A DNA stretch of 64,000 bases from an uncultured bacterium (GTDB taxonomy: Bacteria; Myxococcota_A; UBA9042; PHBI01): NCBI GenBank assembly GCA_938040325.1, contig CALHXW010000018.1:1540-65539 (forward strand), read 5' to 3'. The translations under genes and the position numbers were made by a program. Positions 19,535 through 63,779 of the stretch are shown here, piece after piece (position 1 is the stretch's first letter; each line of letters opens with the position of its first letter). The notes under the pieces are model-generated. The model made no database searches. It was not told the origin of the DNA and was given only the letters and a program-made list of their open reading frames with translations.

Positions 19535-19545
19535 CTGAGCTCGCT

Positions 19546-19628
19546 CACCCGAACTCGACGATGCTCGCAGCACCTTCGTTCGGCCGACACCGCTGCGCAT
19601 CGCCTTCGCTTCGCTCGAAAAGAGCGAG

Positions 19629-19632
<4 letters not shown>
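19546..19632. repeat. ~90-nt intergenic repeat, copy A (second copy at 43069-43160)
   Basis: gctcgctcacccgaActcgacgatgctcgcag...ccttcgcTtcgctcgaaaaGagcg is ~85% identical to 43069-43160. It ends in a perfect hairpin (tcgctc gaaaa gagcga). It sits between convergent genes (beta-lactamase-family +, giant adhesin -). Confidence 0.6.
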
Positions 19633-34617: not shown

Positions 34618-37600
34618 TCACGCGCCGAGGCGGCCTTCGATGATGCGCAGTTCCTCGACCATCTCGCCGCGCGTAGCGATGTCCTGAGCACGCGCCAAGC
34701 TCTGCTGAGCGAACCCTGGCTGCCCGGAGCGTCGCTCGCACTCGCTGAGCGTCATCAAGATGTCGCACAGGTCTTTGTCGCTCACGCCCAAGCTGTCGTA
34801 CGTCGCGACCGCTTCACGCAAGAACGTGATGGCGTCATCAAGCCGCCCAAGGGCTGACTGCGCGCTGCCCATGGTCTTGAGCGTGCCTGCTGCTCCCAGG
34901 AAGTCGCCGCACGAGCCGAAGATGTCCCGAGCCCGAAACGCGAGCTCCACGGCTTGATCGGGTTGGTCCATGGCGAGGGCCACGCGCGCAAGCGCTGCGA
35001 CGCTCGACGCGATGCCGTGGCGGTCGCCAAGGTCCTCGCGGATGCGCAGTGCGCGTTCCAGGTACGGGCGGGCTTCGATGCGCCGTCCTTGCGCCATCAG
35101 CGCTTTGGCAATGGCTCCCAGGGCCTGGCTGACGCCCGTGCGATCATCGAAGCGGTCGAAGATCTCAAGCGCGTTGTTGGCCGAGTCGAGCGCGAACTTG
35201 TAGTCGGAGCGGGCGAGGGCGGCGACTGCCAGGTTGTACTGGCCTTTGGCGAGGGCTCGGCCTTCACCGAGCTTCTTGTAGAGATCGACCGCGCGGCGCA
35301 GCTGTCGTAGCGCCTCACCATGCTCTTTCTGAGCGAGAGCCAACATGCCGAGCCGGGTATAGGTCTCAGCAAGCCCAGCCCGATCGCGTTTCTGGGTGAA
35401 GGTGCGCCTGGCTGCTTGGTACCCAGCCAGCGCGTCGTCGATCGCACCGCGGCTCTCAAGGCTTGTCGCACGCTTCAGCTCGCACCAGGCCGCATGAACC
35501 TCCAAGCCGAGCCCGAGGAAGCGATCGCGCGCGACCCGGAACATCTCCGCAGCCGTGCCGTACTCGGCGAGTGCGTCCTGAACCTCGGCGAGACCGCGCT
35601 CGGCGTGGGCGACGCCTGCCTCGTCTTCGTCTTCGATGGCCCGCTGGAAGAGCGCCGCGTAGCTCTCCGCAGCCTGCTCGAAGAGTCCGAGGTCATAGTG
35701 CAGCTGGGCCAGCTGCGTGAGGATCTGTGGCTCGGCCTCTGCCGCCGTGTCGGCCTCGTCACCGGCGCCTGCGGCCGTCAGCGTACGGCTGAGGTCCAGG
35801 GCCTTGGTGAAGGCTTGCAGTGCGACCTCGGTGGCGTCGTTTTGAAGGGCCTCATTGCCCTGCAGCATCCGGTACTCGAGCGCAGCAGCGATGTTGTCGG
35901 AGGCCTCGAAGTGGACCGCGAGTGCTTCGGAGTGTTCAGCAGTTGAGGTTTCGTCGGCACGCGAAGCGATCTCGACGGCAATCACACCGTGGAGCTTCTT
36001 CAGCGCCCGTCGGCTACGAATCCGACCGATCACGATCTCGCGAAGCAAGCCGTTGTCGAACTGAAGGTTCCTACCGTCATTGGTCTCGTGCAGCATCGCC
36101 GCGTCGATAAGGTCATCGACGGTGTCCTCGAGCGCGTCGAGCATGTCGTCGCGGCCTTCACGTGCCAGACAACCTTCCACGAGGTCGAGGTCAAACGAGT
36201 AGCCGATGAGCGCAGCCCTCCGAAGGATCTCTCGGGAGAGCTTCGGGTTGGGCATCGCTTCGAGCGCGGTCGTCAGCGTTCGCTCTGTCTGGTCGACCAG
36301 CTCTCCGGGCAGCGCGCTCAGCTGCGCCCGTTCCGACAGCGGGTTCCAGAGGCGTGCCTCCCGGAACCTGTCCGGATCGGACTCCATCTGGCGGACGAGT
36401 CGCTCGGCAACGCTTGGGTTGCCGCCGCTGAGGTAGTGGAGATAGTCGGAGATCTGGGTGTAGACCTTGCCGAGCACTCGAAGGAACTTCTTAAACTCGC
36501 TCTTGCCGAGGCGACCGAGCGGCACCAGCTCGTGGGTGTCTCGCTCAGGCTCACCACGCCAGCCGACCTTCTGCAGGATACCCGCGAGCCCAGCGTGTTT
36601 CGCGATCCCGCGTGTCTCGATGGAGAGCATGACGCAAATGCGTGCCGGTGTGCTGGCTAAAGTACCGGCGAGATGCTCCAAGAACCGAATCGTGCGCTCG
36701 TCGGCGCCACTGGTGACGCCAAGATCGAGGACGACGGGCCGCTGCTTGCTAAACCGCACCAGCAGGCGCTGAAGCGCGGCGAAGAGCAGCGGGGTGGCGA
36801 CGGGCCTTCGTCCTGGATCGAGCGACGGCCGGAGGAAGTCGGTGAGCGCGTTGATGATGTCGGGCTCGACCTGCTCGGAGAACGCCGGATGTGCAGCGAG
36901 ATGTTCGCGGACCTGCGGCCGTTCCAGGATCGCCACCCCCAGCATGTGCTCGATGGCGCCACGGATGGCCGGCATCTCGCCGCCTGGCGAGTTGCTGCTA
37001 TAGCCCCTTGAAACCTGCGCTTTGTGGCTGCGCTGTGCGTGCCGCAAGAGCCACTTGACGAGCCGCCCCTTGCCAACGCCACGCTCACCAGCCACCCAGA
37101 TGAAGCGTCCTCGCTGCAGCGAGAACGCGCTGTCGATCACCTTCTGAGCGTTCGCTGCCTCGCGGGGGCGCGCGAGCATCTGAGGGAACTGCGTGCTGGC
37201 AGCTTCGTGAACCGTGCGAAGGCCCATGGGGGGAGTCGGGAAGGCCTCGGCTCGCTCACCTAGGGCCTGTTGCGTGTCTTGTTGCGGTCGCTCGGGAGCT
37301 GGACTGGGCGTCCCCGGCACGCGACGAAGGGTCGGATCGTCGGCCGACATCTGATCGAGGAGCTCTTCCAACGCTTCCCGCACGCTGATCGCGCTCTGGA
37401 AGCGATCTTCTTTCCGCTTCTCAAGCAGCCGGTCGATCAACGCGCTGAGCTTGGGATCGATCTCGACGCCGGTGTCGACCTCGGCGACCGGGGTCGGCGA
37501 CTCGTGGACTTGCTTGTAGAGAAGCTCGAGCGGGTTGTCGTCGTCGAATGGCACCTTACCGGTCAACATCTCGTAGAGCATGATGCCTAGTGCGTAGAGG

Positions 37601-38403
37601 TCGCTCCGCGGGTCGACGGGCTGGCTGTTGGCTTGCTCCGGACTCATGTAGCGGGGCGTGCCGAAGACGGTCCCTGTCTGCGTCAGCTGGCCGCCGGCGT
37701 CAGGGTCGAGGAACTTGGCGACGCCGAAGTCGAGGACTTTGACGAAGTCGCGCTGGCCGTTACGACTGACTAGGAAGATGTTTTCGGGTTTCAGGTCACG
37801 GTGAATGATGTTCTTTCCGTGCGCTTCTTCGAGGCTTCGGCACATCTGGACGCCGATCCGAAGGGCAAGGTGCGGCTGAACTCGCTGCTCAACGCCGAGC
37901 AGGTGGCCAAGGGTCGTGCCCTTGAGGAGCTCCATGACAAGGTAGAGGCTCCCACGCTCCGTTTGCCCGAAGTCGAACACAGTGATCGTGTGAGGGCTCT
38001 CGAGTCGCCGAGCTGCTCGCACCTCCCAAAAGAAGCGCTGCACCGACAGGTGGTTGCCGTCGGCTCGGTGGTGCATGATCTTGATGGCGACTTCGCGGTC
38101 CATCGAGTGCTGCCGCGCGACGTAGACCGACCCCATCCCTCCTTTGCCCAAGATGCGGCTGATGGTGTAGCGGTCATCGATCACCGTTCCGGGTGCCAAG
38201 CCAGCCCCAAGGTTGACCAGACGCGAGCCGTCGTAGGGGCAGCGGTCATAGTCTGGCCCGAACACGCGCTCGCATTCAGGGCACAGAAACTCTGGCGCTT
38301 GCTGTTGGGGGACTTCCAGTTCGCACGCTCCTGACGGGCTGGACGCCGAGGAGTATCGCGCAAGCAACGATCCGCTGCAACGCTCCCTGTGCCTGACCTC
38401 CAC
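34618..38403 (-). CDS. Hanks-type Ser/Thr protein kinase fused to a STAND/AAA-like ATPase region and C-terminal TPR repeats
   Basis: N-terminal Cys4 zinc-ribbon-like motif (CPECERVF..CPYDG). Kinase subdomains (VAIKIM, HRDLKPENIFL, DFGVAK, GTPRYMSPEQ). P-loop GERGVGKGRL. More than 8 TPR-like repeats at the C-terminus. 1261 aa. Confidence 0.85.
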   Translation of the reverse strand: MEVRHRERCSGSLLARYSSASSPSGACELEVPQQQAPEFLCPECERVFGPDYDRCPYDGSRLVNLGAGLAPGTVIDDRYTISRILGKGGMGSVYVARQHSMDREVAIKIMHHRADGNHLSVQRFFWEVRAARRLESPHTITVFDFGQTERGSLYLVMELLKGTTLGHLLGVEQRVQPHLALRIGVQMCRSLEEAHGKNIIHRDLKPENIFLVSRNGQRDFVKVLDFGVAKFLDPDAGGQLTQTGTVFGTPRYMSPEQANSQPVDPRSDLYALGIMLYEMLTGKVPFDDDNPLELLYKQVHESPTPVAEVDTGVEIDPKLSALIDRLLEKRKEDRFQSAISVREALEELLDQMSADDPTLRRVPGTPSPAPERPQQDTQQALGERAEAFPTPPMGLRTVHEAASTQFPQMLARPREAANAQKVIDSAFSLQRGRFIWVAGERGVGKGRLVKWLLRHAQRSHKAQVSRGYSSNSPGGEMPAIRGAIEHMLGVAILERPQVREHLAAHPAFSEQVEPDIINALTDFLRPSLDPGRRPVATPLLFAALQRLLVRFSKQRPVVLDLGVTSGADERTIRFLEHLAGTLASTPARICVMLSIETRGIAKHAGLAGILQKVGWRGEPERDTHELVPLGRLGKSEFKKFLRVLGKVYTQISDYLHYLSGGNPSVAERLVRQMESDPDRFREARLWNPLSERAQLSALPGELVDQTERTLTTALEAMPNPKLSREILRRAALIGYSFDLDLVEGCLAREGRDDMLDALEDTVDDLIDAAMLHETNDGRNLQFDNGLLREIVIGRIRSRRALKKLHGVIAVEIASRADETSTAEHSEALAVHFEASDNIAAALEYRMLQGNEALQNDATEVALQAFTKALDLSRTLTAAGAGDEADTAAEAEPQILTQLAQLHYDLGLFEQAAESYAALFQRAIEDEDEAGVAHAERGLAEVQDALAEYGTAAEMFRVARDRFLGLGLEVHAAWCELKRATSLESRGAIDDALAGYQAARRTFTQKRDRAGLAETYTRLGMLALAQKEHGEALRQLRRAVDLYKKLGEGRALAKGQYNLAVAALARSDYKFALDSANNALEIFDRFDDRTGVSQALGAIAKALMAQGRRIEARPYLERALRIREDLGDRHGIASSVAALARVALAMDQPDQAVELAFRARDIFGSCGDFLGAAGTLKTMGSAQSALGRLDDAITFLREAVATYDSLGVSDKDLCDILMTLSECERRSGQPGFAQQSLARAQDIATRGEMVEELRIIEGRLGA

Positions 38404-38622
38404 CAGACAGCCGCGATGGGCAGGTGTCAGGTCACGGCGGCGGGGTCGGAGCCCAACGCTCCGTGTCGGCGACGGACCTTAGGATGCGGGCGAGCCGCTC
38501 GTGGGCGCCGCAGTGTGTCCCGGCCAGCCGCAGAGCACCTTGACAATCTGACGAGACTGTCTCGATACTCCCGCCTCACCGCGGCATGCCTACTCGGCCG
38601 CGGATCAGGAGAGCACTCGCTG

Positions 38623-40383
38623 ATGATGCGCGCTTACCTTCACGTTGGGAACTTGGTCGCTCTGGCGGCTATCGGGACACTGTCCCTGGGCTGCGACTCG
38701 GGCCTGCAAGAAGACCTGAACACGAGCAAGGACACGCGGTTCGCCGCCGCAGCTGGCAACATCGCCGCTGTCGAGGCTGACCGTCTCAACAAGCTCAAAG
38801 CAGGCCTGCCCGCCCCGAACTTGGAAGGCGCGGCGTCGCTGAAGGCGCTGCTCGAGTGGCGCAAGTCCATCAAGGACCGTAACGACGACACGGCTCTAAA
38901 CTTCCTGGCGGTGCACACGCAGCCGGACAAGCAGCCGCAGCCGGACGAGACGCTCAAGGCGATCGAAGGCGTCGATATGGCTGTCGGAGGTCGAGGGACC
39001 CCCGCCGAGCTCCCCGCCGAGCGTGGCGCGGCCTTTGCGCTTGAGTCGAAAGAGTACTGGGACGGTAAGTCGAGCAACGCGCGCTACCTGACGTTCCTGG
39101 GGACCTACCTAAAAGACGCTGAGCGGGACAAGGCTGAGGCACTCGCCAAGGATCCGAACGCGAAGCTCGTCCCAACCCCCTTCATCGACGAGGCGAAGTT
39201 CGATCTCGTGTTCGCCCATGCGATTCGCTACCTGCTGATTCGCGCATCGCAGGACGGCGACAAGGTCACAAGCGCCGTTCAGCCCTACTGGGAGACAGCG
39301 TTCGACTTCCCCGCGAAGTCGTCGGAGAGCTTCAGCGACTACATCTCCCGGGTCTGCTTCGCGCACCCGAAGCTTCAGGAGAAGTGCAAAGGGGTTCCGC
39401 ATGAGTACCGCGCCCAGGTCGTCAACACGCCTTATGTGCGCGAGCTGAAGACGAAGGTCGAGGAGTACGTGAAGGGGCGTACGGACAAGAACGCGATGTT
39501 CGCCGACATCCTCGGGCGCTTCGGTACGGCCTTTGACTCGGCGCTCGGCAAGGTTCACGTCCACACGGAAGACCCCGTCCTACCGTCGACCTTCGCTCCG
39601 GTGGAAGGCATCAGCGGCATCAAGACGTCGTTTAGCAAAAAGACCGGCTTTAAGATTGAGGGCCAGTCGATCTCGCCGAGCTTCACGGGCGCTGTCCCCA
39701 TGGAGCTGACCATGCGGATGACGACGCTGACCGACACGCTTAAAGCGACCCCTGGCAACCGGATCAACATCGCCAATGTCGTTGTCGAGCTGGACGGCGA
39801 CTCGCCCATGACGACGATTGCCGACATCATCCGCGCGTTCCCGCCGGTGGTGAAGAAGACGCTGCTCGTCGGACGGCGCCGTGTCGACGGCAGCATGCGG
39901 CGCGCCCCGATCAGCATCAAGCGGCCGAAGAAGTCGGCGTCGCCGACCATCTCGTTCAAGTTCGCAGAGGACGCGGCCCCTGCGTCGTGTGACATGGTCG
40001 GCTTCACGGGCCGCCCGTTGCTCGGCAAGGACAAGAAGTCCTTCTTCCTGCACATCACGCCCAGCAAGATCCGCGCGGCAGAGACCACCTACCAGAAAGA
40101 ACTGCGGCAGTTCGACGCTGGCGCTACGGTCAACCTTGGCTCGCCGGCCGACATGACTCAGCTGCTGGCGTGGCTCGAGAAGAACGAGGGCGAGATCCAG
40201 CTCTTCCTCGGGGGCGGGTTCACCTACGACGATGCGATGAAGCACCTCAGCCGAGTCCTCTACAAGTGCATCGACCAAGAGATGGTCTTCGATGCGGGAA
40301 CTCCGAAAGAGCGAACCGTCACGCGTCCCTGCGGAAAGACCGAGCCCTTCGAGTCGACGGTTGTCGTTGCGATGTGTCGATAG
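38623..40383 (+). CDS. Lys-rich lipoprotein of unknown function
   Basis: AGGAG, then ATGATG at 38623. Lipoprotein signal MMRAYLHVGNLVALAAIGTLSLGC. 586 aa, unusually Lys-rich for this genome. The track ORF start (38389) is an upstream extension. Confidence 0.55.
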   Translation: MMRAYLHVGNLVALAAIGTLSLGCDSGLQEDLNTSKDTRFAAAAGNIAAVEADRLNKLKAGLPAPNLEGAASLKALLEWRKSIKDRNDDTALNFLAVHTQPDKQPQPDETLKAIEGVDMAVGGRGTPAELPAERGAAFALESKEYWDGKSSNARYLTFLGTYLKDAERDKAEALAKDPNAKLVPTPFIDEAKFDLVFAHAIRYLLIRASQDGDKVTSAVQPYWETAFDFPAKSSESFSDYISRVCFAHPKLQEKCKGVPHEYRAQVVNTPYVRELKTKVEEYVKGRTDKNAMFADILGRFGTAFDSALGKVHVHTEDPVLPSTFAPVEGISGIKTSFSKKTGFKIEGQSISPSFTGAVPMELTMRMTTLTDTLKATPGNRINIANVVVELDGDSPMTTIADIIRAFPPVVKKTLLVGRRRVDGSMRRAPISIKRPKKSASPTISFKFAEDAAPASCDMVGFTGRPLLGKDKKSFFLHITPSKIRAAETTYQKELRQFDAGATVNLGSPADMTQLLAWLEKNEGEIQLFLGGGFTYDDAMKHLSRVLYKCIDQEMVFDAGTPKERTVTRPCGKTEPFESTVVVAMCR

Positions 40384-40533
40384 CGTGATGTAGGCCGGTT
40401 GCGGCCTCGCGCGCCTACCTTGAGGGGTGCAGTGAGATGACGGTGTTGCGCACGTGCGGTGTCGTTGACGGTTTGTCGGACCCATCGCTGCGTCGTGGCC
40501 CACAGCTCACCGAGCACCTCAAGGTGACTGTCG

Positions 40534-42840
40534 ATGCCTGAGTTCGACCAACACGGCTACCAAGGGTATTGGTTACCGGCTCGACGCCTGGATGGCGACC
40601 ACGGCATCGTCGTTGTCATCAAGCGTCGGTTTGCGGTCGATGTTCCGAGCGCGACGTGCGGTCCGGCTGACGACACTGCGCCGGTTCGGTTCGCGTGCGA
40701 GTACCACGACGATGACGACCCGCCGAACGTGTCGGTCAAAGCGGCGGCCGAGGTCGCCATCGAAAAGACTAACGTCGACATCATCATCCACGGCACTGCG
40801 TACGCGCCCAACGGGAAGCCGGTGCCGTCGTTTGACTGTGGTGTGCGGATTCCAAACGTTATCGAGCGCCGTCTGCGAATCTTCGGCGAGCGCACGTGCG
40901 AGTGGTTTCCGCCGCTCAAGGAGCTGACCTACAAAGACCTTGCCGAGGGCGAGGAGTGGGAGTGGTTGGACCCAGATTTCTCCGACCCGCAGCCGATCGC
41001 CAAGCTTCCGCTCCGCTACGAGTTCGCCTACGGCGGCTGGGGCGTCTTGGTGCTGACTGAAGACGAGCAGGAGATGGCCGAGGAGAGCCAGGCCGTCAAC
41101 GAGATGCTCGAGGAACGTCGTGCCCGCAAAAAGGAGATTGAGCAGGAGCTCATCGCCGAGGAGGAGGCCAAGGAGGCTGCTGCCAAGGAAGCGAAGGCGC
41201 CGAAGAAGGGCGGAATCACTGACGAGAAAGCCCAGGAGCTCGCAGACAAAGCGTTCGCTGACGACGGCGCCGAGCGTGGTCATGACGGTGTGACCCGGGT
41301 CATCGACGCATCCATCATTGCGCGACTGGCAGCCGAAGAGGGCGACGACCTCGACATCGCGAGCCCGCTTCGGCTCGGGCAGAACCTGCCCGATGTCCCG
41401 GAAGACACGGCCGTAGCCGACGATGAGGAGCAGGCCGCGGAAGAAGCCGACGGCGCAGAGGAAGAGGAGCCGGAGGAAGAAGACGAGCGCTTCACGGGCA
41501 ACAAGACGCAGATGCTCGACATCTCTAAGCTCAACCTCGAGGACGAGCTCAGCCAGGACCTCCATGAGGCCTCGGTCGAGCGGCAGGCGGCGCTCAAGGA
41601 TGAAGAGGGGACGCTGAGGGACCGCGACGCCCGCTTCGGCGACATCAAGCTCTACGGCGACGACTGGGCAGCTCAGTACGTCGGCAAGCGTAAGAAAACG
41701 AAGAAGAAGCGCGAGGAGAGCGAGTTCCCTGAGCTCCCGTGCCCGAGCAACCCCTCAGGCATGGGGTTTGCGGTCTCTTATCGGCAGCAGGCCCTTGAGG
41801 GCCTCAAGCTCCCGCACATTGAGGACCCTGACAACCTCATCACGCCCGAAGAGCTCGTGGTCGACCTTGCAGAGATGGAGCTGATGGCGCTGCGGGCGCC
41901 AGCAGGCTTTGCCCCTTACGCGCCAGGTTGGTTCCCCCGGGCCGGATACTGGGGCATCTATCCCTGGGACGAGGAGGCTGCTGCCGCGGCCGTGGAGAAG
42001 GCAAAAGAAGAGTTCGACCCGGAAGACCATGACGACCTGCCCATCCTTGAGCAGCTTGAGAAGCTTGAGATTCCCGTCATGCGCACGCCAGCGTTCCAAG
42101 AAGCTCACCCAAAGATGCAGGTTGCCGATGTTCGCGGTGACGAAGACGTCTACCTAGAAAACCTGACGCCTGACGGGATGCTCTTCTTTCGGTTGCCCGG
42201 TCTGCATCCCACAGCGACCATCGACATGAGCGAGGGCCCAGTCCCGCTTCGGCTGAGGCTCGACACCCTTGTGTTCGACCTCGACGATGTCGAAGCACCC
42301 GCCGTCGAGCTGGCGTGGCGTGCGTGGCATCCCATTGCCGACTTCGATCAGCTCTCGGAGACACCTTTCCGCAAGATCAACATCATCGAGGTCGACCAAG
42401 AGGGTTGGCTGGACGTCAAGCGAGACGAGCAGCGGGCTGACAAGGGCGGTTCGAGCGATGGCGTCACGCAGTTCATTGCTGCCATCACCGATGAGGAGCT
42501 TGAAGAACTCGATGACGCTGAGGGCAAGTACAAGGCGCAGTTCAAGAAGCTCCGAAAGGACCAGGACCCCGGGGTCGGCGTCAGGATCGACGACAAGGGA
42601 GACGCTGTAGTCTTCGACCAAGACGAGGGCCGCCGTCTCTCGGACGATGTCTGGGACGACAACATCCGAGACGCCAAAGACGACGTCGAAGAGATGGCGC
42701 GCAGGATCAAGGAAGAGAAAGACAAGGCTCGACTCAAAGATGTCCGAGCGCTTGCCCGTGCCAAGGCCGACGAGGAGTTCGGCATCATCCGTGATGACGA
42801 CGGCGAGATCCTCGTGAGCGACTTGGACGAGCTCGAGTAG
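40534..42840 (+). CDS. Large (768 aa) highly acidic protein of unknown function
   Basis: Cys-containing N-terminal domain (~170 aa). Long Glu/Lys-rich low-complexity linker (EEEEPEEEDE...). Aromatic-rich central segment (PAGFAPYAPGWFPRAGYWGIYPWDEE) and an acidic C-terminus. No signal peptide. Confidence 0.55.
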   Translation: MPEFDQHGYQGYWLPARRLDGDHGIVVVIKRRFAVDVPSATCGPADDTAPVRFACEYHDDDDPPNVSVKAAAEVAIEKTNVDIIIHGTAYAPNGKPVPSFDCGVRIPNVIERRLRIFGERTCEWFPPLKELTYKDLAEGEEWEWLDPDFSDPQPIAKLPLRYEFAYGGWGVLVLTEDEQEMAEESQAVNEMLEERRARKKEIEQELIAEEEAKEAAAKEAKAPKKGGITDEKAQELADKAFADDGAERGHDGVTRVIDASIIARLAAEEGDDLDIASPLRLGQNLPDVPEDTAVADDEEQAAEEADGAEEEEPEEEDERFTGNKTQMLDISKLNLEDELSQDLHEASVERQAALKDEEGTLRDRDARFGDIKLYGDDWAAQYVGKRKKTKKKREESEFPELPCPSNPSGMGFAVSYRQQALEGLKLPHIEDPDNLITPEELVVDLAEMELMALRAPAGFAPYAPGWFPRAGYWGIYPWDEEAAAAAVEKAKEEFDPEDHDDLPILEQLEKLEIPVMRTPAFQEAHPKMQVADVRGDEDVYLENLTPDGMLFFRLPGLHPTATIDMSEGPVPLRLRLDTLVFDLDDVEAPAVELAWRAWHPIADFDQLSETPFRKINIIEVDQEGWLDVKRDEQRADKGGSSDGVTQFIAAITDEELEELDDAEGKYKAQFKKLRKDQDPGVGVRIDDKGDAVVFDQDEGRRLSDDVWDDNIRDAKDDVEEMARRIKEEKDKARLKDVRALARAKADEEFGIIRDDDGEILVSDLDELE

Positions 42841-42875
42841 CGGGAGCCTGAGCTGGCGGCTCTCAAGTGCAGCCT

Positions 42876-43520
42876 GCTAGCAGCGTTGCCGGGAAACGCG
42901 AAATCTGGTGACTTCGCGATGCGCTCGACGCGGATCCCAGGGGCGCAGCTCCTGTTGAGCTTGAGACCATTCAAGAGCTGCGCCCCTGAAACGGTGCTCT
43001 AGTCCCAAAACAAGCGCTCTTTCCGGCTGCGGCTTTGGCGATGCCCTCGCCAGCGACTTCGTTTCGCTCGCTGCGCTCACCCGAGCTCGACGATGCTCGC
43101 AGGGCCTTCACTCGGCCGACGCCGCTGGCAAGCGCAGCGCCTTCGCCTCGCTCGAAAATAGCGCTTGTTTTGGGTCTAGTTGTAGATGCCGGAAGTTCGT
43201 TCCTAGCAGCGTTCGGGGAAATGCAATTCCCGATGACTTTGCGATGCGCACCACTGGAGTGATGACCTCGAGATCACTCAGGAGCTGCGCCCCTGCAACC
43301 CGCGTTGTGGTTTCCTCTCGTTCATCACCCCAGCGGCACACCTCGCTGCGTCCCAGAATCCGCATTTCCCCGAACGCTGCTAGGTCCAAACAGGCCGTCG
43401 TCGAGGTCGAGATCCGACGACGCCGACGTGTCGGGACCCTTCAAGAAGTCGGACCGAAGAGGTCGGCGATGGACCGTCGAGGAGATAGGAACGAACTTCC
43501 GATCTCTACAACTAGGTCGC
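42876..43520. mobile_element. Nested MITE-like inverted-repeat elements bounded by CTAG
   Basis: TIR pair a: ctagtcccaaaacaagcgct (42996-43016) with agcgcttgttttgggtctag (43160-43179), enclosing repeat copy B. TIR pair b: ctagttgtagatgccggaagttcgttcc (43176-43203) with ggaacgaacttccgatctctacaactag (43489-43516). Three copies of a ~55-90-nt unit beginning ctagcagcgtt(c/g)(c/g)gggaaa(c/t)gc (42876, 43204, and inverted at 43385-43331), each with internal caggggcgcagctc...gagctgcgcccctg hairpins. Confidence 0.45.
43069..43160. repeat. ~90-nt intergenic repeat, copy B (see 19546-19632)
   Basis: gctgcgctcacccgaGctcgacgatgctcgcagGgccttcActcggccgacGccgctg..ccttcgcCtcgctcgaaaaTagcg. It is framed by the CTAG-terminated inverted repeat pair a. 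Confidence 0.55.
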
Positions 43521-44378
43521 CAAGTGGCCTGGGATCGGGAGGTTGTCGCCGCCGACAACGGGTCCGACAGGCACGTAGGGCGGCGCGTAGGTCGGCACAG
43601 GGCCCTTGCCCATCACCATCATCACCTGCTGGCTCAAGAGCCAGAGCGGAAACTGGAGGCCGACCGCGAAGGCGATCGTGTCGAAGATGGCGACATGCTG
43701 CTTGTCGGAGTCTTCGTCTTTGACGCCCCCGTCGAGGGCGTCAACCATGGCGCTCTTCAGCTGGGGTTGCGTCATCTTCGCCATCATTGCCGACGGCCAC
43801 AGCATGAGAGGGAAGGGCACGTTCGGCATCGGCGGCGCCATCGCGAGCGGGAACGCTGCGAACGCCGGCCACATGGGCAGACCCGGGCACGTGACCTTGC
43901 CCTGCCACTCTTTCCAGCACTTGCTCACACCCTCGGCCACAGCCTTGACGTAGGCTTTGGCATTCGACTCGGTCTCGATCCACGTCTTGAACGGGACCAT
44001 GTCCTTGAGTTCCGGCCCATCGAGGCAGCCTGGGGCACCGATGCCCGAGACCGCCATGATCTTCAGGTCCTTGATCTTGGCCTGCAGCCGCCACATGTCG
44101 ACCGCTTGTTTGATCGTCGACAACGCCTTGTGGACGAAGTCCTTCACCTTGCCGCCAATGTCTTTGCAGGTCTCGACGTGGTACTTGTTGACCGTCGCAG
44201 ACCAGAAGTAGCAGAGGGGCTCAGGCACACCGGCCAGCTCGCTGGGCTCGAACGAGTCTGGGTACTGGCTCTTCTCCGGCTCCGCTTGTGGCTGCTTCCA
44301 GTCCACAGGCAACTTCTTCATCAACGCCGGGAAGTAGACGTCAGCAAGCGTTTCGAGTGGCAGCGTAAATCCAGGCAT
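43512..44378 (-). CDS. Hypothetical Lys/Pro/Met-rich protein (288 aa)
   Basis: Complete ORF whose composition (K, M, W-rich; apparently lower GC) is atypical for the surrounding genome. Its 3' end overlaps the right TIR of the MITE pile. No recognisable domain. Confidence 0.45.
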   Translation of the reverse strand: MPGFTLPLETLADVYFPALMKKLPVDWKQPQAEPEKSQYPDSFEPSELAGVPEPLCYFWSATVNKYHVETCKDIGGKVKDFVHKALSTIKQAVDMWRLQAKIKDLKIMAVSGIGAPGCLDGPELKDMVPFKTWIETESNAKAYVKAVAEGVSKCWKEWQGKVTCPGLPMWPAFAAFPLAMAPPMPNVPFPLMLWPSAMMAKMTQPQLKSAMVDALDGGVKDEDSDKQHVAIFDTIAFAVGLQFPLWLLSQQVMMVMGKGPVPTYAPPYVPVGPVVGGDNLPIPGHLAT

Positions 44379-44532
44379 CGGGCGCTCCGTTCAGAGACCA
44401 TGCACCGTCAAGCGGGTGCGCAGAGATGAATAAGGACCGTGAAAAGGGCGACCAGCACATGGTGGCGACCGCCTACCCCGAAGACAAGAGTTAGCCTATC
44501 ATCTCAGCCGAATTGCCCGCAAGGTCGTAGCC

Positions 44533-47277
44533 ATGATGCACCATCCCTTGAGTTTGGCCGACGTGACACGGGGCCTCACTGGCGAGCATGTCCGGGACGC
44601 GGCAGTTGCTGTCGAACAGTCACGGCGGCTGTCGCCCGAACAAGAAGCAAGCTGGCTCGCGGCCGAACACCAGTGGGCCGTCGCAAGTATCGCCACCACA
44701 CCTCTTGCCTGGCGTGTGGCGAGGCTCGCGTGGCGAGACGGCCGGGTGGCGCATGAGCGGCTAGAGCGCCCTGAGCTGGCGGTTCCGTCGAGCTGGATCC
44801 ACCCGGAGCTCGATGGATCGCGCTACACGTCTCATGCCATGACCGCGATCGGTGCAGGACCGAGCGTCTGGCCCTTTCGATTCGATGGCGTTACCGGCGT
44901 GTTCAGCGCTGGCGACGCGTTTGGTTGGTGGAGCCACGGACTCGTGCACGCGCTTATCGGCGGTGCCTGGTGGCCAGGCATGACCGAGTGGGAGCTGATG
45001 CACGTCTCCCGTCTGAGCGAAGCTGTTGCAGCGCTGCACTGGTACTGGCTCGCTGAGATCGGGCGGCAGCATGACGATGCGCCGGAGTTCGACCTCACGC
45101 GGCCGAACCCTGACGCGGACGCAGCCTATGCTGACCTCGAGAGCCGTGCTCGCAACCCGATCTCGCGTCTCAAGAACCTACGCTCCGACAGGTCGGTTCG
45201 CATCGGACAGAACGCGCTCGAGATCATGAACTACGAAGCGTTTGCGTATCGACGCGGAATGTTCGCCGGCGAGATGGTCGAGCCCAAAGGCCGCTACCTC
45301 AACCTTGGTGAAGCCTGTGAGTACGCGCGCTTTCACCTGCGACGCCTTAGCTCATCGGCTGCCAGTCGTTGGCGAGACACCTGCATGAACGGCGACTTCG
45401 CCACGAGCGCAAGCGAGTTCGAGTCGCGCGCAGCCAGCGTGCTCGCCGCGATCTTATCGCCAGCGGAGTTAGAGCTATCCGAGAGCCCTCCCCACGGCCT
45501 CCGTGTCCTGCAGGACCTCGGGTGGCGGCTGGCCCACGCGAGCGAGCTTGACGTCGACAAACAGGCGATCGAGCGCTCGCTCCAGGCCTGTGGCGACGCG
45601 TGTGTAGCGGTACGCGACGGAAGCAACGCAGATGACGCAATCCGGGCGCTGATGGGCGCGCTGGTCGTGGACGCACCCAGCATCGGCGCTGACATTGTGA
45701 AGCTCGGCTATCGTCCGTTGAGAGATGGGGTCGACCCAAGCAGGGAACCGCGCACAGACGCCTTGATTGCGCGGAGCTGGAGAACGCACCGTGTCGTCGG
45801 CACCGCTTGCGAGGGCGTCCGTGCCGCCGCTGCGCTCGCAGTGGACGCCCCACGCAACGCAAGTGTCATCGAGGACTTGATCCCCGCCGCCGAGGTTGCC
45901 GCCGCAGCTGGCGCGATCGCCTATCTCGACGAAGCCTACCTCGGCTGGCTGGCGGTGGCGCAGCAGTTCTGGGGGCCGTTTTCAGCGAGTCCCGAGCAGG
46001 GCAACCGCTACCGCTATCGACTTGCGCGGCGCGAGCTGCCGCCGCAGGACGAGTGGTCACGCTATGAGGTGCAGATCAACCCTTACGTCGACAGGCAGCC
46101 CATGCCATTCGACGCACGTTGGAATGCCGACCTCCTCGAGAGGCCAGCCGGTGCGGTGGGCGCGTACGAAGCGAAAGCGGCGACGGCGGTCTGGCACTGT
46201 CTGCTCGGCAGCAGCCCCGAGGGGCCGCTGTACATTCCGCTGACCCCCACGATGCTATCGGTCGTGTCGAAGCTCCGAAGCCCGATGCGACTCGGTGACC
46301 TTGCCGACGAGGCCGGTTCGAACCTCGCAGCCCTGAACGCAGCGGTCGCTAGCAGGGCTGTGCTGCTCTTCGACAAGCCGGTCGGCCCGACGCGTTCGCG
46401 CCAGCCTGCGATCTCAGGACCGTTTGGGTTCGAGATGGAGGCTGTTATCGAGCCCGTAGGACCATGGAGCGACCAAGAGCAAGTCGACGCCTACCTCAAC
46501 TTCCAGGCGCGCAGCACCCTCTACACCGAGAGCTCTGGCGCCCTCGTTGCGCATGCGCAGGTGGAGCACGTCAGGCGCGTCGCTGACCTCGCCGCGGGGA
46601 CGGGCACGACCACAAGAGCACTGCTGTCGGTCGTCGGGCCGGCGGCTGAAGTCGTAGCCGTGGAGCCATCCATCAAGATGGCGGAGCACCACAGCAACCT
46701 CGTGGGGGACTCGCGGGTCGAGCTCGTCAAGGGCGGCCTGCGAGCGCTCTTCGGCCAGGTCGCGTGGGGCGGCCCCTTCGACGCGGTCGTGTGCAACTCC
46801 GGGCTCTGGCTGTGTGGCCCTCTGCCCACGACTCTCGGTTGGTTGCGTTACAGCCTCGGGCCGCGTGGCACGCTGGGCTTCAACATCCCGCTTGAGTATC
46901 TCGGCGAACACCAGATGCTTGGCGACGGCGTTGGCGTAGAGGTTGCGTCCGCTCTTCACGCGATTCAGTCCGAGCGGTTCGGCGCGCCTGTGACCCGAGA
47001 CACGACCAGCGACCTGGGGCTCGGGTCGCGGCAAACGGTCAACGACGCGCTCCGTGATGCCGGGTTCGAAGAGGTCGAGTGGAAGAACTGGTCGTACGAT
47101 TGGACCGTCGGTGACTACCTCGCCTGGCTCAGTATGCCTGCTGTTGTGGTGTCGCTAGCGCCCGCGGACACCCCAGAGCAAGCCGTCGCTGTGCTTGACG
47201 AGCTTCAACGCCGCGTTGACCTGAACGCACCCCTGACGTGGACTTGGGCGATGGTTCGCGCGCGGACGCCCGCTTAG
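44533..47277 (+). CDS. Large protein (914 aa) with C-terminal class-I SAM-dependent methyltransferase domain and unknown ~650-aa N-terminal region
   Basis: Motif I VADLAAGTGTTTRALL, and a post-I acidic residue (VVAVEPS) and motif-IV-like DAVVCNSGLW in the last ~250 aa. Nothing recognisable in the N-terminal region. First gene of a same-strand cluster. Confidence 0.6.
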   Translation: MMHHPLSLADVTRGLTGEHVRDAAVAVEQSRRLSPEQEASWLAAEHQWAVASIATTPLAWRVARLAWRDGRVAHERLERPELAVPSSWIHPELDGSRYTSHAMTAIGAGPSVWPFRFDGVTGVFSAGDAFGWWSHGLVHALIGGAWWPGMTEWELMHVSRLSEAVAALHWYWLAEIGRQHDDAPEFDLTRPNPDADAAYADLESRARNPISRLKNLRSDRSVRIGQNALEIMNYEAFAYRRGMFAGEMVEPKGRYLNLGEACEYARFHLRRLSSSAASRWRDTCMNGDFATSASEFESRAASVLAAILSPAELELSESPPHGLRVLQDLGWRLAHASELDVDKQAIERSLQACGDACVAVRDGSNADDAIRALMGALVVDAPSIGADIVKLGYRPLRDGVDPSREPRTDALIARSWRTHRVVGTACEGVRAAAALAVDAPRNASVIEDLIPAAEVAAAAGAIAYLDEAYLGWLAVAQQFWGPFSASPEQGNRYRYRLARRELPPQDEWSRYEVQINPYVDRQPMPFDARWNADLLERPAGAVGAYEAKAATAVWHCLLGSSPEGPLYIPLTPTMLSVVSKLRSPMRLGDLADEAGSNLAALNAAVASRAVLLFDKPVGPTRSRQPAISGPFGFEMEAVIEPVGPWSDQEQVDAYLNFQARSTLYTESSGALVAHAQVEHVRRVADLAAGTGTTTRALLSVVGPAAEVVAVEPSIKMAEHHSNLVGDSRVELVKGGLRALFGQVAWGGPFDAVVCNSGLWLCGPLPTTLGWLRYSLGPRGTLGFNIPLEYLGEHQMLGDGVGVEVASALHAIQSERFGAPVTRDTTSDLGLGSRQTVNDALRDAGFEEVEWKNWSYDWTVGDYLAWLSMPAVVVSLAPADTPEQAVAVLDELQRRVDLNAPLTWTWAMVRARTPA

Positions 47278-63645: not shown

Positions 63646-63779
63646 ACGGCCCTCCTGAGCGAGGGGGGCTGTTTACAGCAGTCCAAGGGCACGGCGCCAG
63701 AACTAGCCCCCTAAGCAACCGCTGTTTTCGAGCGAGGCGAACGCGATGTGCTCGGCCGCGGCGTCGACCGGCCTCCCGT

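What the first reader, a model, noticed from the sequence alone, without database searches (positions are those of the whole stretch)
42876..43520. Pile of nested inverted-repeat (MITE-like) elements bounded by CTAG in a convergent intergenic region
In the 670-bp gap between convergent genes there are two terminal-inverted-repeat pairs, 20 and 28 nt long, and both begin or end with CTAG. The first encloses the ~90-nt repeat copy B. A ~55-90-nt unit starting ctagcagcgtt.gggaaa occurs three times (once inverted), each with internal long hairpins. CTAG-flanked TIR elements are the hallmark of IS630/Tc1-mariner-type insertions (target CTAG/TA). No transposase is present, so these look like non-autonomous MITEs stacked at a hotspot that also abuts compositionally atypical ORFs.
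Basis: seen in the sequence. Interest (0 to 1): 0.58.

Follow-up and report, generated by a model that had tools for sequence, protein, structure and literature searches.

The report
Stack of miniature transposons at CTAG
The gap between two convergent genes of an uncultured myxobacterium-like genome is almost wholly filled by four small transposase-less inverted-repeat transposons joined end to end or nested at CTAG sites, which is an ordinary though tidy case of a known kind of mobile DNA.

Summary
Positions 42877-43515 hold four CTAG-bounded units from three unrelated families.
- X1: 42877-43002, 126 bp, decayed ends.
- Y: 42999-43179, 181 bp, 20-nt terminal inverted repeats (TIRs).
- Z: 43176-43515, 340 bp, 30-nt TIRs.
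- X2: 43203-43383, 181 bp, perfect 22-nt TIRs, nested at a CTAG inside Z's left arm.

Y/Z share one CTAG; X1/Y nearly do (2 extra nt). The last CTAG contains the TAG stop of the minus-strand gene. Six of the window's 51 CTAGs lie in these 639 bp (P about 8e-6).

Relatives with the same five-gene order have a 129-155 bp gap there, with plain hairpin terminators and no such elements. A 99.7%-identical strain diverges exactly after the first CTAG.

The X TIR recurs, CTAG-flanked, around different interiors in other Myxococcota-like assemblies, often at contig ends and often on a TAG stop codon. Y has two partial copies elsewhere in the window. Z is single-copy in everything searched.

I found no transposase and no Rfam match. 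I read this as a MITE pile that grew because each insertion regenerates its CTAG target. IS630 parentage is plausible but unproven: an IS5-type 4-bp CTAG duplication gives identical junctions. The neighbouring ORFs are conserved syntenic genes, not atypical ones. Verdict: a new member of a known kind, of modest interest.

The parts
42877..43002 (.). X1: a 126-bp decayed member of the X family. Its left end is CTAGCAGCGTTGCCGGGAAACGC. Its right end is degenerate (GAAACGGTGCTCTAG, with 2 extra nt before the CTAG it shares with Y). It has an internal 17-bp GC-rich hairpin.
   Evidence: Aligns to X2 over about 97 nt (nhmmer E 1e-8). Folds at -37.5 kcal/mol, z -5.8.
42999..43179 (.). Y: a 181-bp element with 20-nt TIRs CTAGTCCCAAAACAAGCGCT (1 mismatch). 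The whole unit is an imperfect palindrome (63-nt arms, 76% complementary). Its right half is the dispersed ~90-nt repeat.
43176..43515 (.). Z: a 340-bp element, 163 bp once X2 is removed. TIRs are 43176-43205 and 43486-43515 (27/30). It is single-copy in all data searched. Its last CTAG (43512-43515) contains the TAG stop of the minus-strand gene.
43203..43383 (.). X2: a 181-bp element with perfect 22-nt TIRs CTAGCAGCGTTCGGGGAAATGC. It is inserted at a CTAG inside Z's left arm. Removing it together with one CTAG restores Z's 30-nt TIR.
   Evidence: The same TIR occurs in other genomes.
40534..42840 (+). Upstream flanking gene, DUF2169 family (768 aa). Its stop codon lies 36 nt before the pile.
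   Evidence: Pfam PF09937, E 5e-49. Syntenic in relatives.
43512..44378 (-). Downstream convergent gene: a 288-aa conserved hypothetical protein with more than 1200 homologues, several named Myxococcota or Myxococcales by their sources. Its TAG stop is the reverse complement of 43512-43514, inside the pile's last CTAG.
19541..19628 (+). Partial Y-family copy (right arm, lacking the terminal 15 nt). It fills the whole 93-nt gap between a beta-lactamase-family gene and a 2460-aa FG-GAP/TSP3 gene, which are convergent.
63703..63770 (-). Partial Y-family copy (about 68 nt) that keeps a CTAG terminus. It lies between two minus-strand genes.

Best explanation
[quoted passage not shown] None encodes a transposase.

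They were most likely moved by DDE cut-and-paste transposases supplied in trans. These enzymes insert at the palindrome CTAG and duplicate it, either the central TA (IS630/Tc1-mariner style) or the whole tetranucleotide (IS5 style).

Each insertion leaves a CTAG at both ends of the element. CTAG is otherwise about four-fold depleted in this 64% GC genome. Each insertion therefore creates a fresh target next to the old one, and the site grows into a stack in which neighbours share one CTAG (Y with Z exactly; X1 with Y with 2 extra nt).

The seeding target was probably the C-TAG formed by the stop codon of the minus-strand gene. The duplication rebuilds that stop codon, so the insertions cost the gene nothing.

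The only part of the order that can be read is that Z preceded X2. X2, with perfect TIRs, is probably the youngest copy, and X1, with decayed ends, is probably old.

- **Shown:** the anatomy, the nesting, absence from syntenic relatives, divergence between strains at the boundary, recurrence of X and Y elsewhere, and the lack of a transposase in the window.
- **Inferred:** the transposition mechanism, the parent family, the seeding site, and any terminator role.
For: **Anatomy.** There are three CTAG-started TIR pairs, and they are the only such pairs in the window. Y and Z share a single CTAG; X1 and Y nearly do. X2 sits at a CTAG within Z's left TIR, and excising X2 plus one CTAG restores a contiguous 30-nt Z TIR.

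**CTAG statistics.** Six of 51 CTAGs lie in 639 bp, P 8e-6. Overall CTAG count is 51, against 83 expected from dinucleotide shuffles and 211 from base composition.

**Insertion rather than ancestral sequence.** Relatives at 56% amino-acid identity keep the order kinase / 568-aa gene / DUF2169 / 294-aa gene / methyltransferase. Their convergent gap is only 129-155 bp, with GC hairpin terminators and no such repeats.

**Polymorphism.** A Logan contig from ERR9287624 is 99.7% identical over 3449 bp. It departs from the window exactly after CTAG 42877-42880 (CTAG|TGGT against CTAG|CAGC) and then ends.

**Mobility of X.**
- The same 22-nt TIR bounds a 163-bp MITE with a different interior in a Myxococcales MAG (L008, identical to L017).
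- It bounds a 570-bp non-coding element in MAG CAZLEO01 (L003).
- In that MAG, three contigs and one JGI contig break off inside the element (L002, L006, L007, L036).
- A second pile, joined by CTAGs, occurs in L022.

**Mobility of Y.** Two further partial copies lie in the window.

**Non-autonomy.** There is no transposase among about 40 Pfam-scanned ORFs of the window. The 570-bp element has no significant Pfam match, the best being E 0.09.

**Not a known RNA.** There is no Rfam match.

**Target on stop codons.** The window's outer CTAG and the X insertions in L002, L006 and L007 coincide with the TAG stop of long ORFs with GC3 0.82-0.96. These ORFs are 292, 399, 500 and 335 codons. L004 does so too, but its ORF looks spurious.
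Against: - No autonomous parent with matching TIRs was found in any collection searched.
- The source genome was not in the species-representative collection, so genome-wide copy numbers are unknown.
- Z is single-copy in all the data, so its mobility rests on anatomy alone.
- X1's right end is degenerate and has 2 extra nt before the shared CTAG, so the 'one shared CTAG' rule is not exact there.
- Removing all four units leaves only 36 nt between the two stop codons. That is shorter than in relatives and has no terminator hairpin, so some ancestral sequence must have been lost or overwritten.
- The strain polymorphism rests on only 4 divergent nt before the contig ends.
- The window comes from a metagenome-assembled contig, and no read-level check was possible.
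Confidence: 0.8

Rival explanations
1. This is the same MITE pile, but the parents are IS5-family elements that duplicate the whole 4-bp CTAG, not IS630-family elements that duplicate TA. It is a rival to the reader's family assignment, not to the MITE reading.
For: The IS5 group makes 4-base CTAG direct repeats (PMC9241763). MITEPsy1, an IS5-derived 100-nt MITE, duplicates CTAG or YTAA (PMC3189936). Every junction here reads equally well as CTAG[element]CTAG.
Against: On this reading the element termini would be CAG.., TCC.. and TTG... They share nothing with each other or with the GG/GA starts I recall for IS5-family ends; that recollection is from memory and was not tested. On the TA reading, all three families begin with G and end with C. 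No parent was found either way.
Confidence: 0.3
2. These are REP/REPIN-like palindromic units spread by a RAYT (IS200/IS605-type Y1) transposase. On this view the CTAG is the conserved tetranucleotide head of the repeat, not a target duplication.
For: The units are long hairpins in intergenic DNA, often just 3' of genes, and all begin with the same tetranucleotide.
Against: The three families share only the CTAG, whereas REPs of one RAYT share the whole palindrome. The TIRs are not themselves palindromic. X2 is inserted exactly at a CTAG that was already present in Z, and the CTAG now stands on both sides, which is how a target duplication behaves. The same TIR encloses interiors of 124 to 570 bp that differ entirely. 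No RAYT was seen in the window.
Confidence: 0.05
3. The region is a locally evolved functional structure, such as a bidirectional terminator or a structured or antisense RNA, and not mobile DNA.
For: The region folds very strongly (RNA z = -8.3). It replaces the hairpin terminators seen at this position in relatives.
Against: There is no Rfam match. The region is not conserved in syntenic relatives. The same TIRs occur at unrelated loci in other genomes. The consensus scan found no promoter-like site and only one terminator-like site, which is no more than shuffled sequence gives. A terminator role as a by-product of the MITE hairpins remains possible.
Confidence: 0.04
4. The stack is an assembly artefact: repeats from different loci were chained together in a metagenome-assembled contig.
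For: The window comes from a MAG contig. Other assemblies break at these repeats. A near-identical strain differs after the first CTAG.
Against: Adjacent units share only 4 nt (CTAG). X1 and X2 share at most about 12 exact nt. Both are too short to mis-join k-mer assemblies. X2 is flanked on both sides by the two halves of a matching Z TIR, which a chimera would not produce.
Confidence: 0.03

Closest known systems
IS630-family-derived bacterial MITEs. IS630 itself inserts at TA within 5'-CTAG-3' with a 2-bp duplication (Tenzen & Ohtsubo 1991, cited in PMC2577343 table 1). From my own knowledge, not tested here: RUP of Streptococcus pneumoniae and Nezha of cyanobacteria.
   Same: Small size, TIRs, no coding capacity, every copy bounded by CTAG (and so by TA), hairpin-forming, intergenic, and mobilised in trans.
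   Different: No IS630-type parent with these TIRs was found. The three TIR families share only the terminal G after the TA. The host is an uncultured high-GC Myxococcota-like lineage.
IS5-group MITEs such as MITEPsy1 of Pseudomonas syringae (100 nt, 18-nt TIRs, 4-nt CTAG/YTAA duplication; PMC3189936)
   Same: CTAG on both sides, about 100-200 nt long, non-coding, TIR-bounded.
   Different: The TIR sequences are unrelated to MITEPsy1's GGAAGGTCTGAAAAAGCC. No ISPsy2-like parent was found. Here several families are stacked.
Correia elements (CREE/NEMIS) of Neisseria (from my own knowledge, not tested here)
   Same: TA-flanked, 100-150-bp, TIR-bounded hairpin elements that sit close to gene ends and can act on transcript ends.
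   Different: No sequence similarity. No evidence here of promoter, IHF-site or RNase III function. Piles of different families are not their usual form.
Nested or stacked MITE insertions as described in plant genomes (review PMC5172404)
   Same: MITEs inserted into other MITEs at their preferred target, giving composite repeats.
   Different: This case is bacterial. The stacking is driven by a rare 4-bp palindrome that each insertion regenerates.

Membership tests
MITE (non-autonomous TIR transposon) | Small size (tens to a few hundred bp) with no transposase coding capacity | tested here: met
   The units are 126, 181, 181 and 340 bp (163 bp without the nested copy). There is no room for a transposase-sized ORF. 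The 570-bp relative in L003 has no significant Pfam match.
MITE (non-autonomous TIR transposon) | Terminal inverted repeats | tested here: met
   TIRs match at 22/22 (X2), 19/20 (Y) and 27/30 (Z). X1 is degenerate, about 11/15 with a 2-nt offset.
MITE (non-autonomous TIR transposon) | Target-site duplication at both ends | tested here: met
   Every unit is bounded by CTAG on both sides. X2 interrupts Z at a CTAG that now stands on both sides of X2, and removing X2 plus one copy restores Z's TIR. The length of the duplication (2 or 4 bp) cannot be told.
MITE (non-autonomous TIR transposon) | Multiple dispersed copies in the genome | tested here: inconclusive
   X has 2 copies in the window plus copies in at least 4 other assemblies. 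Y has 3 copies in the 64 kb. Z has 1 copy only. The rest of the source genome was not available.
MITE (non-autonomous TIR transposon) | Presence/absence polymorphism at the insertion site | tested here: inconclusive
   The elements are absent from the syntenic gap of relatives at 56% identity. A 99.7%-identical strain diverges right after the first CTAG, but only 4 nt are visible before the contig ends. No clean empty site was recovered.
IS630 / Tc1-mariner-derived element | TA duplication, with a preference for CTAG | tested here: inconclusive
   All junctions are consistent with C-TA-[G...C]-TA-G. They are equally consistent with a 4-bp CTAG duplication (PMC2577343, PMC9241763).
IS630 / Tc1-mariner-derived element | An autonomous parent with the same TIRs that encodes an IS630-type DDE transposase | tested here: not met
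   None was found in the window. None was found in the hits from genome contigs, metagenome contigs, viral contigs or plasmids. The search was limited to exact TIR words and did not include the source genome, so the parent may exist unseen.
IS5-family-derived element | 4-bp CTAG (YTAR) duplication and IS5-like termini, with a DDE_Tnp_1 parent | tested here: inconclusive
   The duplication is compatible. The termini under this reading (CAG / TCC / TTG) are unlike each other. No parent was found.
REP / REPIN (RAYT-mobilised) | One conserved palindromic repeat per RAYT, no target duplication, and a RAYT gene in the genome | tested here: not met
   The three TIR families are unrelated and share only CTAG. 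The nested insertion behaves as a target duplication. No RAYT is in the window, and the rest of the genome could not be tested.
Known structured RNA family (Rfam) | A match to a covariance model at or above the gathering score | tested here: not met
   There are no matches above gathering score in the whole window. Around the region there is only a chance-level SorX hit: E 0.33, 18.5 bits against a threshold of 46.6, and it lies inside the DUF2169 coding sequence.

The most novel reading that the evidence does not exclude
High-GC Myxococcota may carry a guild of unrelated MITE families that all use the rare palindrome CTAG. Their favoured landing site would be the C-TAG of a gene's stop codon. 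The duplication rebuilds the stop, so the insertion is neutral, and it also makes a new target, so 3' ends of TAG-terminated genes grow self-extending stacks. These stacks may then replace the ancestral intrinsic terminator between convergent genes. If one CTAG-specific transposase mobilises TIRs as different as X, Y and Z, recognition would rest on little more than the terminal TA-G, which would be unusual.
Probability: 0.15. Interest if true: 0.5.

Novelty: new member of a known kind. Interest (0 to 1): 0.27.

Why it matters
It shows cleanly how a rare palindromic target turns one insertion into a growing hotspot. It adds three undescribed MITE families from an uncultured Myxococcota-like lineage. 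It also explains why short-read assemblies of these organisms break at gene 3' ends.

Practical uses follow. The X terminal repeat (CTAGCAGCGTTCGGGGAAATGC) is a search handle for the still-unknown parent transposase. Occupancy of the stack can serve as a strain marker.

It does not change what is known about transposition.

Tried and rejected
**Looking for a parent insertion sequence**
- Exact-word scan of genome contigs with the X TIR. This gave 8 loci. About 6 are real and all are non-autonomous. L005 and L009 look like chance matches.
- Scan of metagenome contigs with the 18-mer lacking CTAG. This gave 18 loci, about 15 of them chance matches, including a eukaryote-like contig, L015.
- Scans of viral contigs with X, Y, Z and Y-internal words. 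These gave nothing, or chance 16-mer matches.
- blastn of the whole pile against plasmids: only chance-level short hits.
- A scan of all fetched loci for CTAG...CTAG TIR pairs up to 3 kb apart: MITE-sized pairs only.

**Looking for coding remnants.** Six-frame fragments of the 570-bp element in L003 gave no significant Pfam match.

**Looking for an empty site**
- Exact-protein look-ups of the 288-aa and 914-aa window proteins found nothing on record.
- The nearest homologues of both flanking genes are only 56-64% identical.
- For the MttB gene of the CAZLEO01 MAG, the longer JGI contig also ends inside the element.

**Other checks**
- Source organism name: the cluster look-up gave no names.
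- Structured RNA: Rfam gave nothing.
- Promoter and terminator consensus scan: nothing above shuffled sequence.
- Literature: I found no paper in the searched library describing CTAG-targeting MITEs in myxobacteria. The CTAG occurrences in the Halobacterium paper concern methylation, not transposon targets.

**Idea rejected.** I dropped the idea that the flanking ORFs are foreign or atypical.

Full report
**What is in the sequence**

The window has 64% GC. Two convergent genes flank the finding. The first is a DUF2169 gene at 40534-42840 on the plus strand (Pfam E 5e-49). The second is a 288-aa ORF at 43512-44378 on the minus strand. The 671-bp gap between them begins with 36 nt of unique sequence. 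The remaining 639 bp, 42877-43515, resolve into four units, each starting and ending with CTAG.

| Unit | Coordinates | Length | Ends |
|---|---|---|---|
| X1 | 42877-43002 | 126 bp | Left end CTAGCAGCGTTGCCGGGAAACGC; right end decayed |
| Y | 42999-43179 | 181 bp | TIR CTAGTCCCAAAACAAGCGCT, 19/20 |
| Z | 43176-43515 | 340 bp | TIR 27/30 |
| X2 | 43203-43383 | 181 bp | TIR CTAGCAGCGTTCGGGGAAATGC, 22/22 |

- Y and Z share a single CTAG at 43176-43179. X1 and Y meet at 42999-43002, but X1's decayed end sits 2 nt out of register there.
- X2 lies inside Z. Its left CTAG (43203-43206) overlaps the last three bases of Z's left TIR.
- Deleting X2 together with one CTAG gives a 163-bp Z with an uninterrupted 30-nt TIR.
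- X1 and X2 are related over about 97 nt.
- The TIRs of X, Y and Z have nothing in common beyond CTAG.

**Is it more than chance?**

I tested all 110 pairs of CTAGs lying within 3 kb of each other in the window. Only the three pairs above have complementary ends, at 20-23 of 26 positions. The next best pair scores 13. Random position pairs average 7.0, sd 2.4.

CTAG itself is depleted. There are 51 copies, against 83 expected from dinucleotide shuffles and 211 from base composition. Six of the 51 lie in these 639 bp, where 0.45 are expected (P 8e-6).

Each unit folds as a long hairpin with z between -5.6 and -6.9.

There are three TIR pairs rather than two. The "unit occurring three times" is X1's left end plus both arms of X2.

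**Is it inserted DNA?**

The closest homologues of the DUF2169 protein are only 56% identical. Their contigs nevertheless keep the same five genes in the same order and orientation: Ser/Thr kinase with TPR repeats (-), a 568-aa gene (+), DUF2169 (+), a 294-aa gene (-), and a 940-aa methyltransferase (+). In those contigs the convergent gap is 129 and 155 bp. It holds ordinary GC-rich hairpin terminators and has no CTAG-bounded repeats. The window thus carries roughly 520 extra bp.

A Logan contig from run ERR9287624 matches the window at 99.7% over 3449 bp. It follows the window up to and including the first CTAG (42877-42880). It then reads TGGT where the window reads CAGC, and it ends there. 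That is what a strain with a different occupant of the hotspot would look like. Only four bases are visible, so I treat this as suggestive.

**Do the families occur elsewhere?**

*Y.* Its right arm recurs at two places in the window.
- At 19541-19628 it fills the gap between a beta-lactamase-family gene and a 2460-aa FG-GAP/TSP3 gene, which are convergent.
- At 63703-63770 on the minus strand the copy still starts with CTAG.

*X.* A scan of one genome per species found the TIR in several high-GC assemblies.
- A Myxococcales MAG holds a 163-bp MITE with the same 22-nt ends, CTAG on both sides and a wholly different interior (L008). The same element is in metagenome contig L017.
- MAG CAZLEO01 is labelled Rickettsiales but has 70% GC. 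It holds a 570-bp non-coding element with these ends (L003). Three of its contigs stop 55 nt into the element (L002, L006, L007).
- A JGI contig carrying the identical MttB gene stops 118 nt into the element (L036). Assemblies breaking inside a repeat is what a multi-copy element produces.
- A metagenome scan with the TIR stripped of its CTAG returned mostly chance 18-mers. Its three real hits are preceded by CTAG (L017, L022) or by TAG (the decayed L023).
- L022 shows another small pile. A solo X left end (109-207) abuts a 124-bp X-type MITE (204-327), and the two are joined by a CTAG.

*Z.* It was found nowhere else.

**What is absent**

- No Rfam family matches the region or the window.
- The consensus scan gives no promoter-like site and one terminator-like site, which is the number expected from shuffles.
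- About 40 ORFs of the window were scanned against Pfam. They are chromosomal genes: sucCD, ndk, rlmN, prs, gcvT, an ECF sigma factor with FecR, an SNF2 helicase, an HtrA-like protease and others. None is a transposase.
- The flanking ORFs have normal GC3 (0.77 and 0.86) and are syntenic in relatives. The "compositionally atypical" remark does not hold.

**Mechanism**

The anatomy is that of cut-and-paste TIR elements mobilised in trans. They are small, TIR-bounded and non-coding. The same short sequence stands on both sides of each, and one element interrupts another exactly at that sequence.

The stack has a simple explanation, which is inference on my part. An insertion at CTAG leaves a CTAG at each end of the new element. 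In a genome where CTAG is scarce, these new sites are the nearest targets, so later insertions land beside or inside earlier ones.

The outermost CTAG at 43512-43515 is the C-TAG of the minus-strand gene's stop codon, which closes a 292-codon open frame with GC3 0.86. That gene's C-terminus is about the same length as in relatives. The stop codon was therefore probably the seed, and the duplication rebuilt it.

The same pattern holds for X insertions in other genomes. In L002, L006 and L007 the flanking CTAG closes ORFs of 399, 500 and 335 codons with GC3 0.82-0.96. These ORFs are a membrane protein, an MttB-family protein by precomputed Pfam PF06253, and a likely secreted or lipoprotein-type protein. 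L004 also qualifies formally, but its ORF looks spurious. In the window only 7 of 51 CTAGs coincide with such stops. This enrichment may simply reflect selection against insertions inside genes.

As for order, Z preceded X2. X2's perfect TIRs suggest it is the youngest copy, and X1's decayed ends suggest it is old. Beyond that the order of X1, Y and Z cannot be read.

Whether the hairpins now serve as the terminator that relatives have at this position is untested.

**Which transposase?**

IS630 does duplicate TA within CTAG (PMC2577343, table 1). But IS5-group elements and their MITEs duplicate the whole CTAG (PMC9241763; MITEPsy1, PMC3189936). C-TA-[G...C]-TA-G and CTAG-[...]-CTAG are the same string, so the junctions cannot decide between them.

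One weak point favours the TA reading. Under it, all three families begin with G and end with C. Under the 4-bp reading, their termini (CAG, TCC, TTG) share nothing.

I put IS630-type parentage at roughly one half, IS5-type at about 0.3, and other families at the remainder.

**Rivals**

- A REP/REPIN origin fits the hairpins and the intergenic sites. It does not fit three unrelated repeat families, the duplication-like behaviour at the nested site, or one TIR enclosing interiors of 124-570 bp.
- A locally evolved structured RNA is contradicted by the lack of conservation at the syntenic site and by the same ends occurring at unrelated loci.
- An assembly chimera is unlikely. Adjacent units share only 4 nt, and X2 is flanked by the two matching halves of Z. 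Only reads can settle this.

**Caveats**

- The source genome outside the window could not be searched, so copy numbers are unknown.
- Z's mobility is inferred from its form alone.
- X1's right end carries 2 extra nt before the shared CTAG.
- The reconstructed empty site (36 nt plus CTAG) is shorter than the gap in relatives and lacks their terminator, so some ancestral sequence was lost.

**Verdict**

The family assignment remains open, and the comment about atypical neighbours is wrong. This is a new member of a known kind. The families appear undescribed and the host lineage is uncultured, but the biology is textbook. Interest is modest, at 0.27.

Noticed in passing
window 19541-19628 and 63703-63770: There are two partial copies of the Y family. 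The first exactly fills the 93-nt gap between a beta-lactamase-family gene (ending at 19535) and a 2460-aa FG-GAP/TSP3 gene (ending at 19629), which are convergent. The second keeps a CTAG terminus and lies between two minus-strand genes. Three Y copies in 64 kb hint at a high genome-wide copy number.
   Followed up: partly
L002 (34-55), L006 (6799-6820), L007 (6472-6493), L004 (2798-2819); window 43512-43515: X-family insertions repeatedly sit on a CTAG whose TAG is the stop codon of a long high-GC3 ORF (399, 500, 335 and 292 codons; L004's 208-codon ORF looks spurious). The duplication rebuilds the stop. In the window only 7 of 51 CTAGs coincide with such stops. This could be a target preference, or simply selection against insertions inside genes.
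   Followed up: partly
L022 51-327 (metagenome contig Ga0224499_10090113): This is a second, independent small pile. A solo X-type left end (109-207) abuts a 124-bp X-type MITE (204-327, TIR CTAGCAGTGTTTGGGGAAGTTACCCGT), joined by a CTAG. A further CTAG lies 55 nt upstream.
   Followed up: partly
L003 859-1428; L002, L006, L007, L036 contig ends: MAG CAZLEO01 is labelled 'uncultured Rickettsiales' but has 70% GC, so the label is probably wrong. It carries a 570-bp non-coding element with X-type ends and an internal CTAG. Three of its contigs and one JGI contig break off inside it. A fork after 55 nt implies at least one further variant, which might be the full-length parent.
   Followed up: partly
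window 34618-47277; L032-L035: A five-gene block is conserved across distant Myxococcota-like genomes: Ser/Thr kinase with AAA_16 and TPR, a 568-664-aa protein with no Pfam match, DUF2169, a 288-294-aa protein with no Pfam match (more than 1200 homologues), and a 914-940-aa methyltransferase-domain protein. It is followed by an AAA_17 kinase-like gene and a pre-ATP-grasp gene. I know DUF2169 mainly from type VI secretion contexts, but no T6SS gene is nearby. The function of the block is unknown.
   Followed up: no
L032 8400-8445: In a relative, the syntenic convergent gap holds a short inverted repeat, CAGCGTCCG...CGAACGCTCG. It resembles the X TIR core, and TGACGAACGCT equals the right end of the L003 element. 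It could be a footprint of an old X insertion at the same site, or coincidence.
   Followed up: no
L001 3400-3449 vs window 42835-42884: The 99.7%-identical Logan strain has 3 substitutions in the 36-nt spacer, one of which creates an extra CTAG (GGCTCTAGAGTG). It then differs from the window immediately after the shared CTAG.
   Followed up: partly
window, whole; L032-L035: CTAG is strongly avoided. The window has 51 copies in 64 kb, against 211 expected from base composition. There are 0 in 14.3 kb of L032 and 1 in 10.5 kb of L034. This scarcity is what makes regenerated CTAGs attractive targets.
   Followed up: partly
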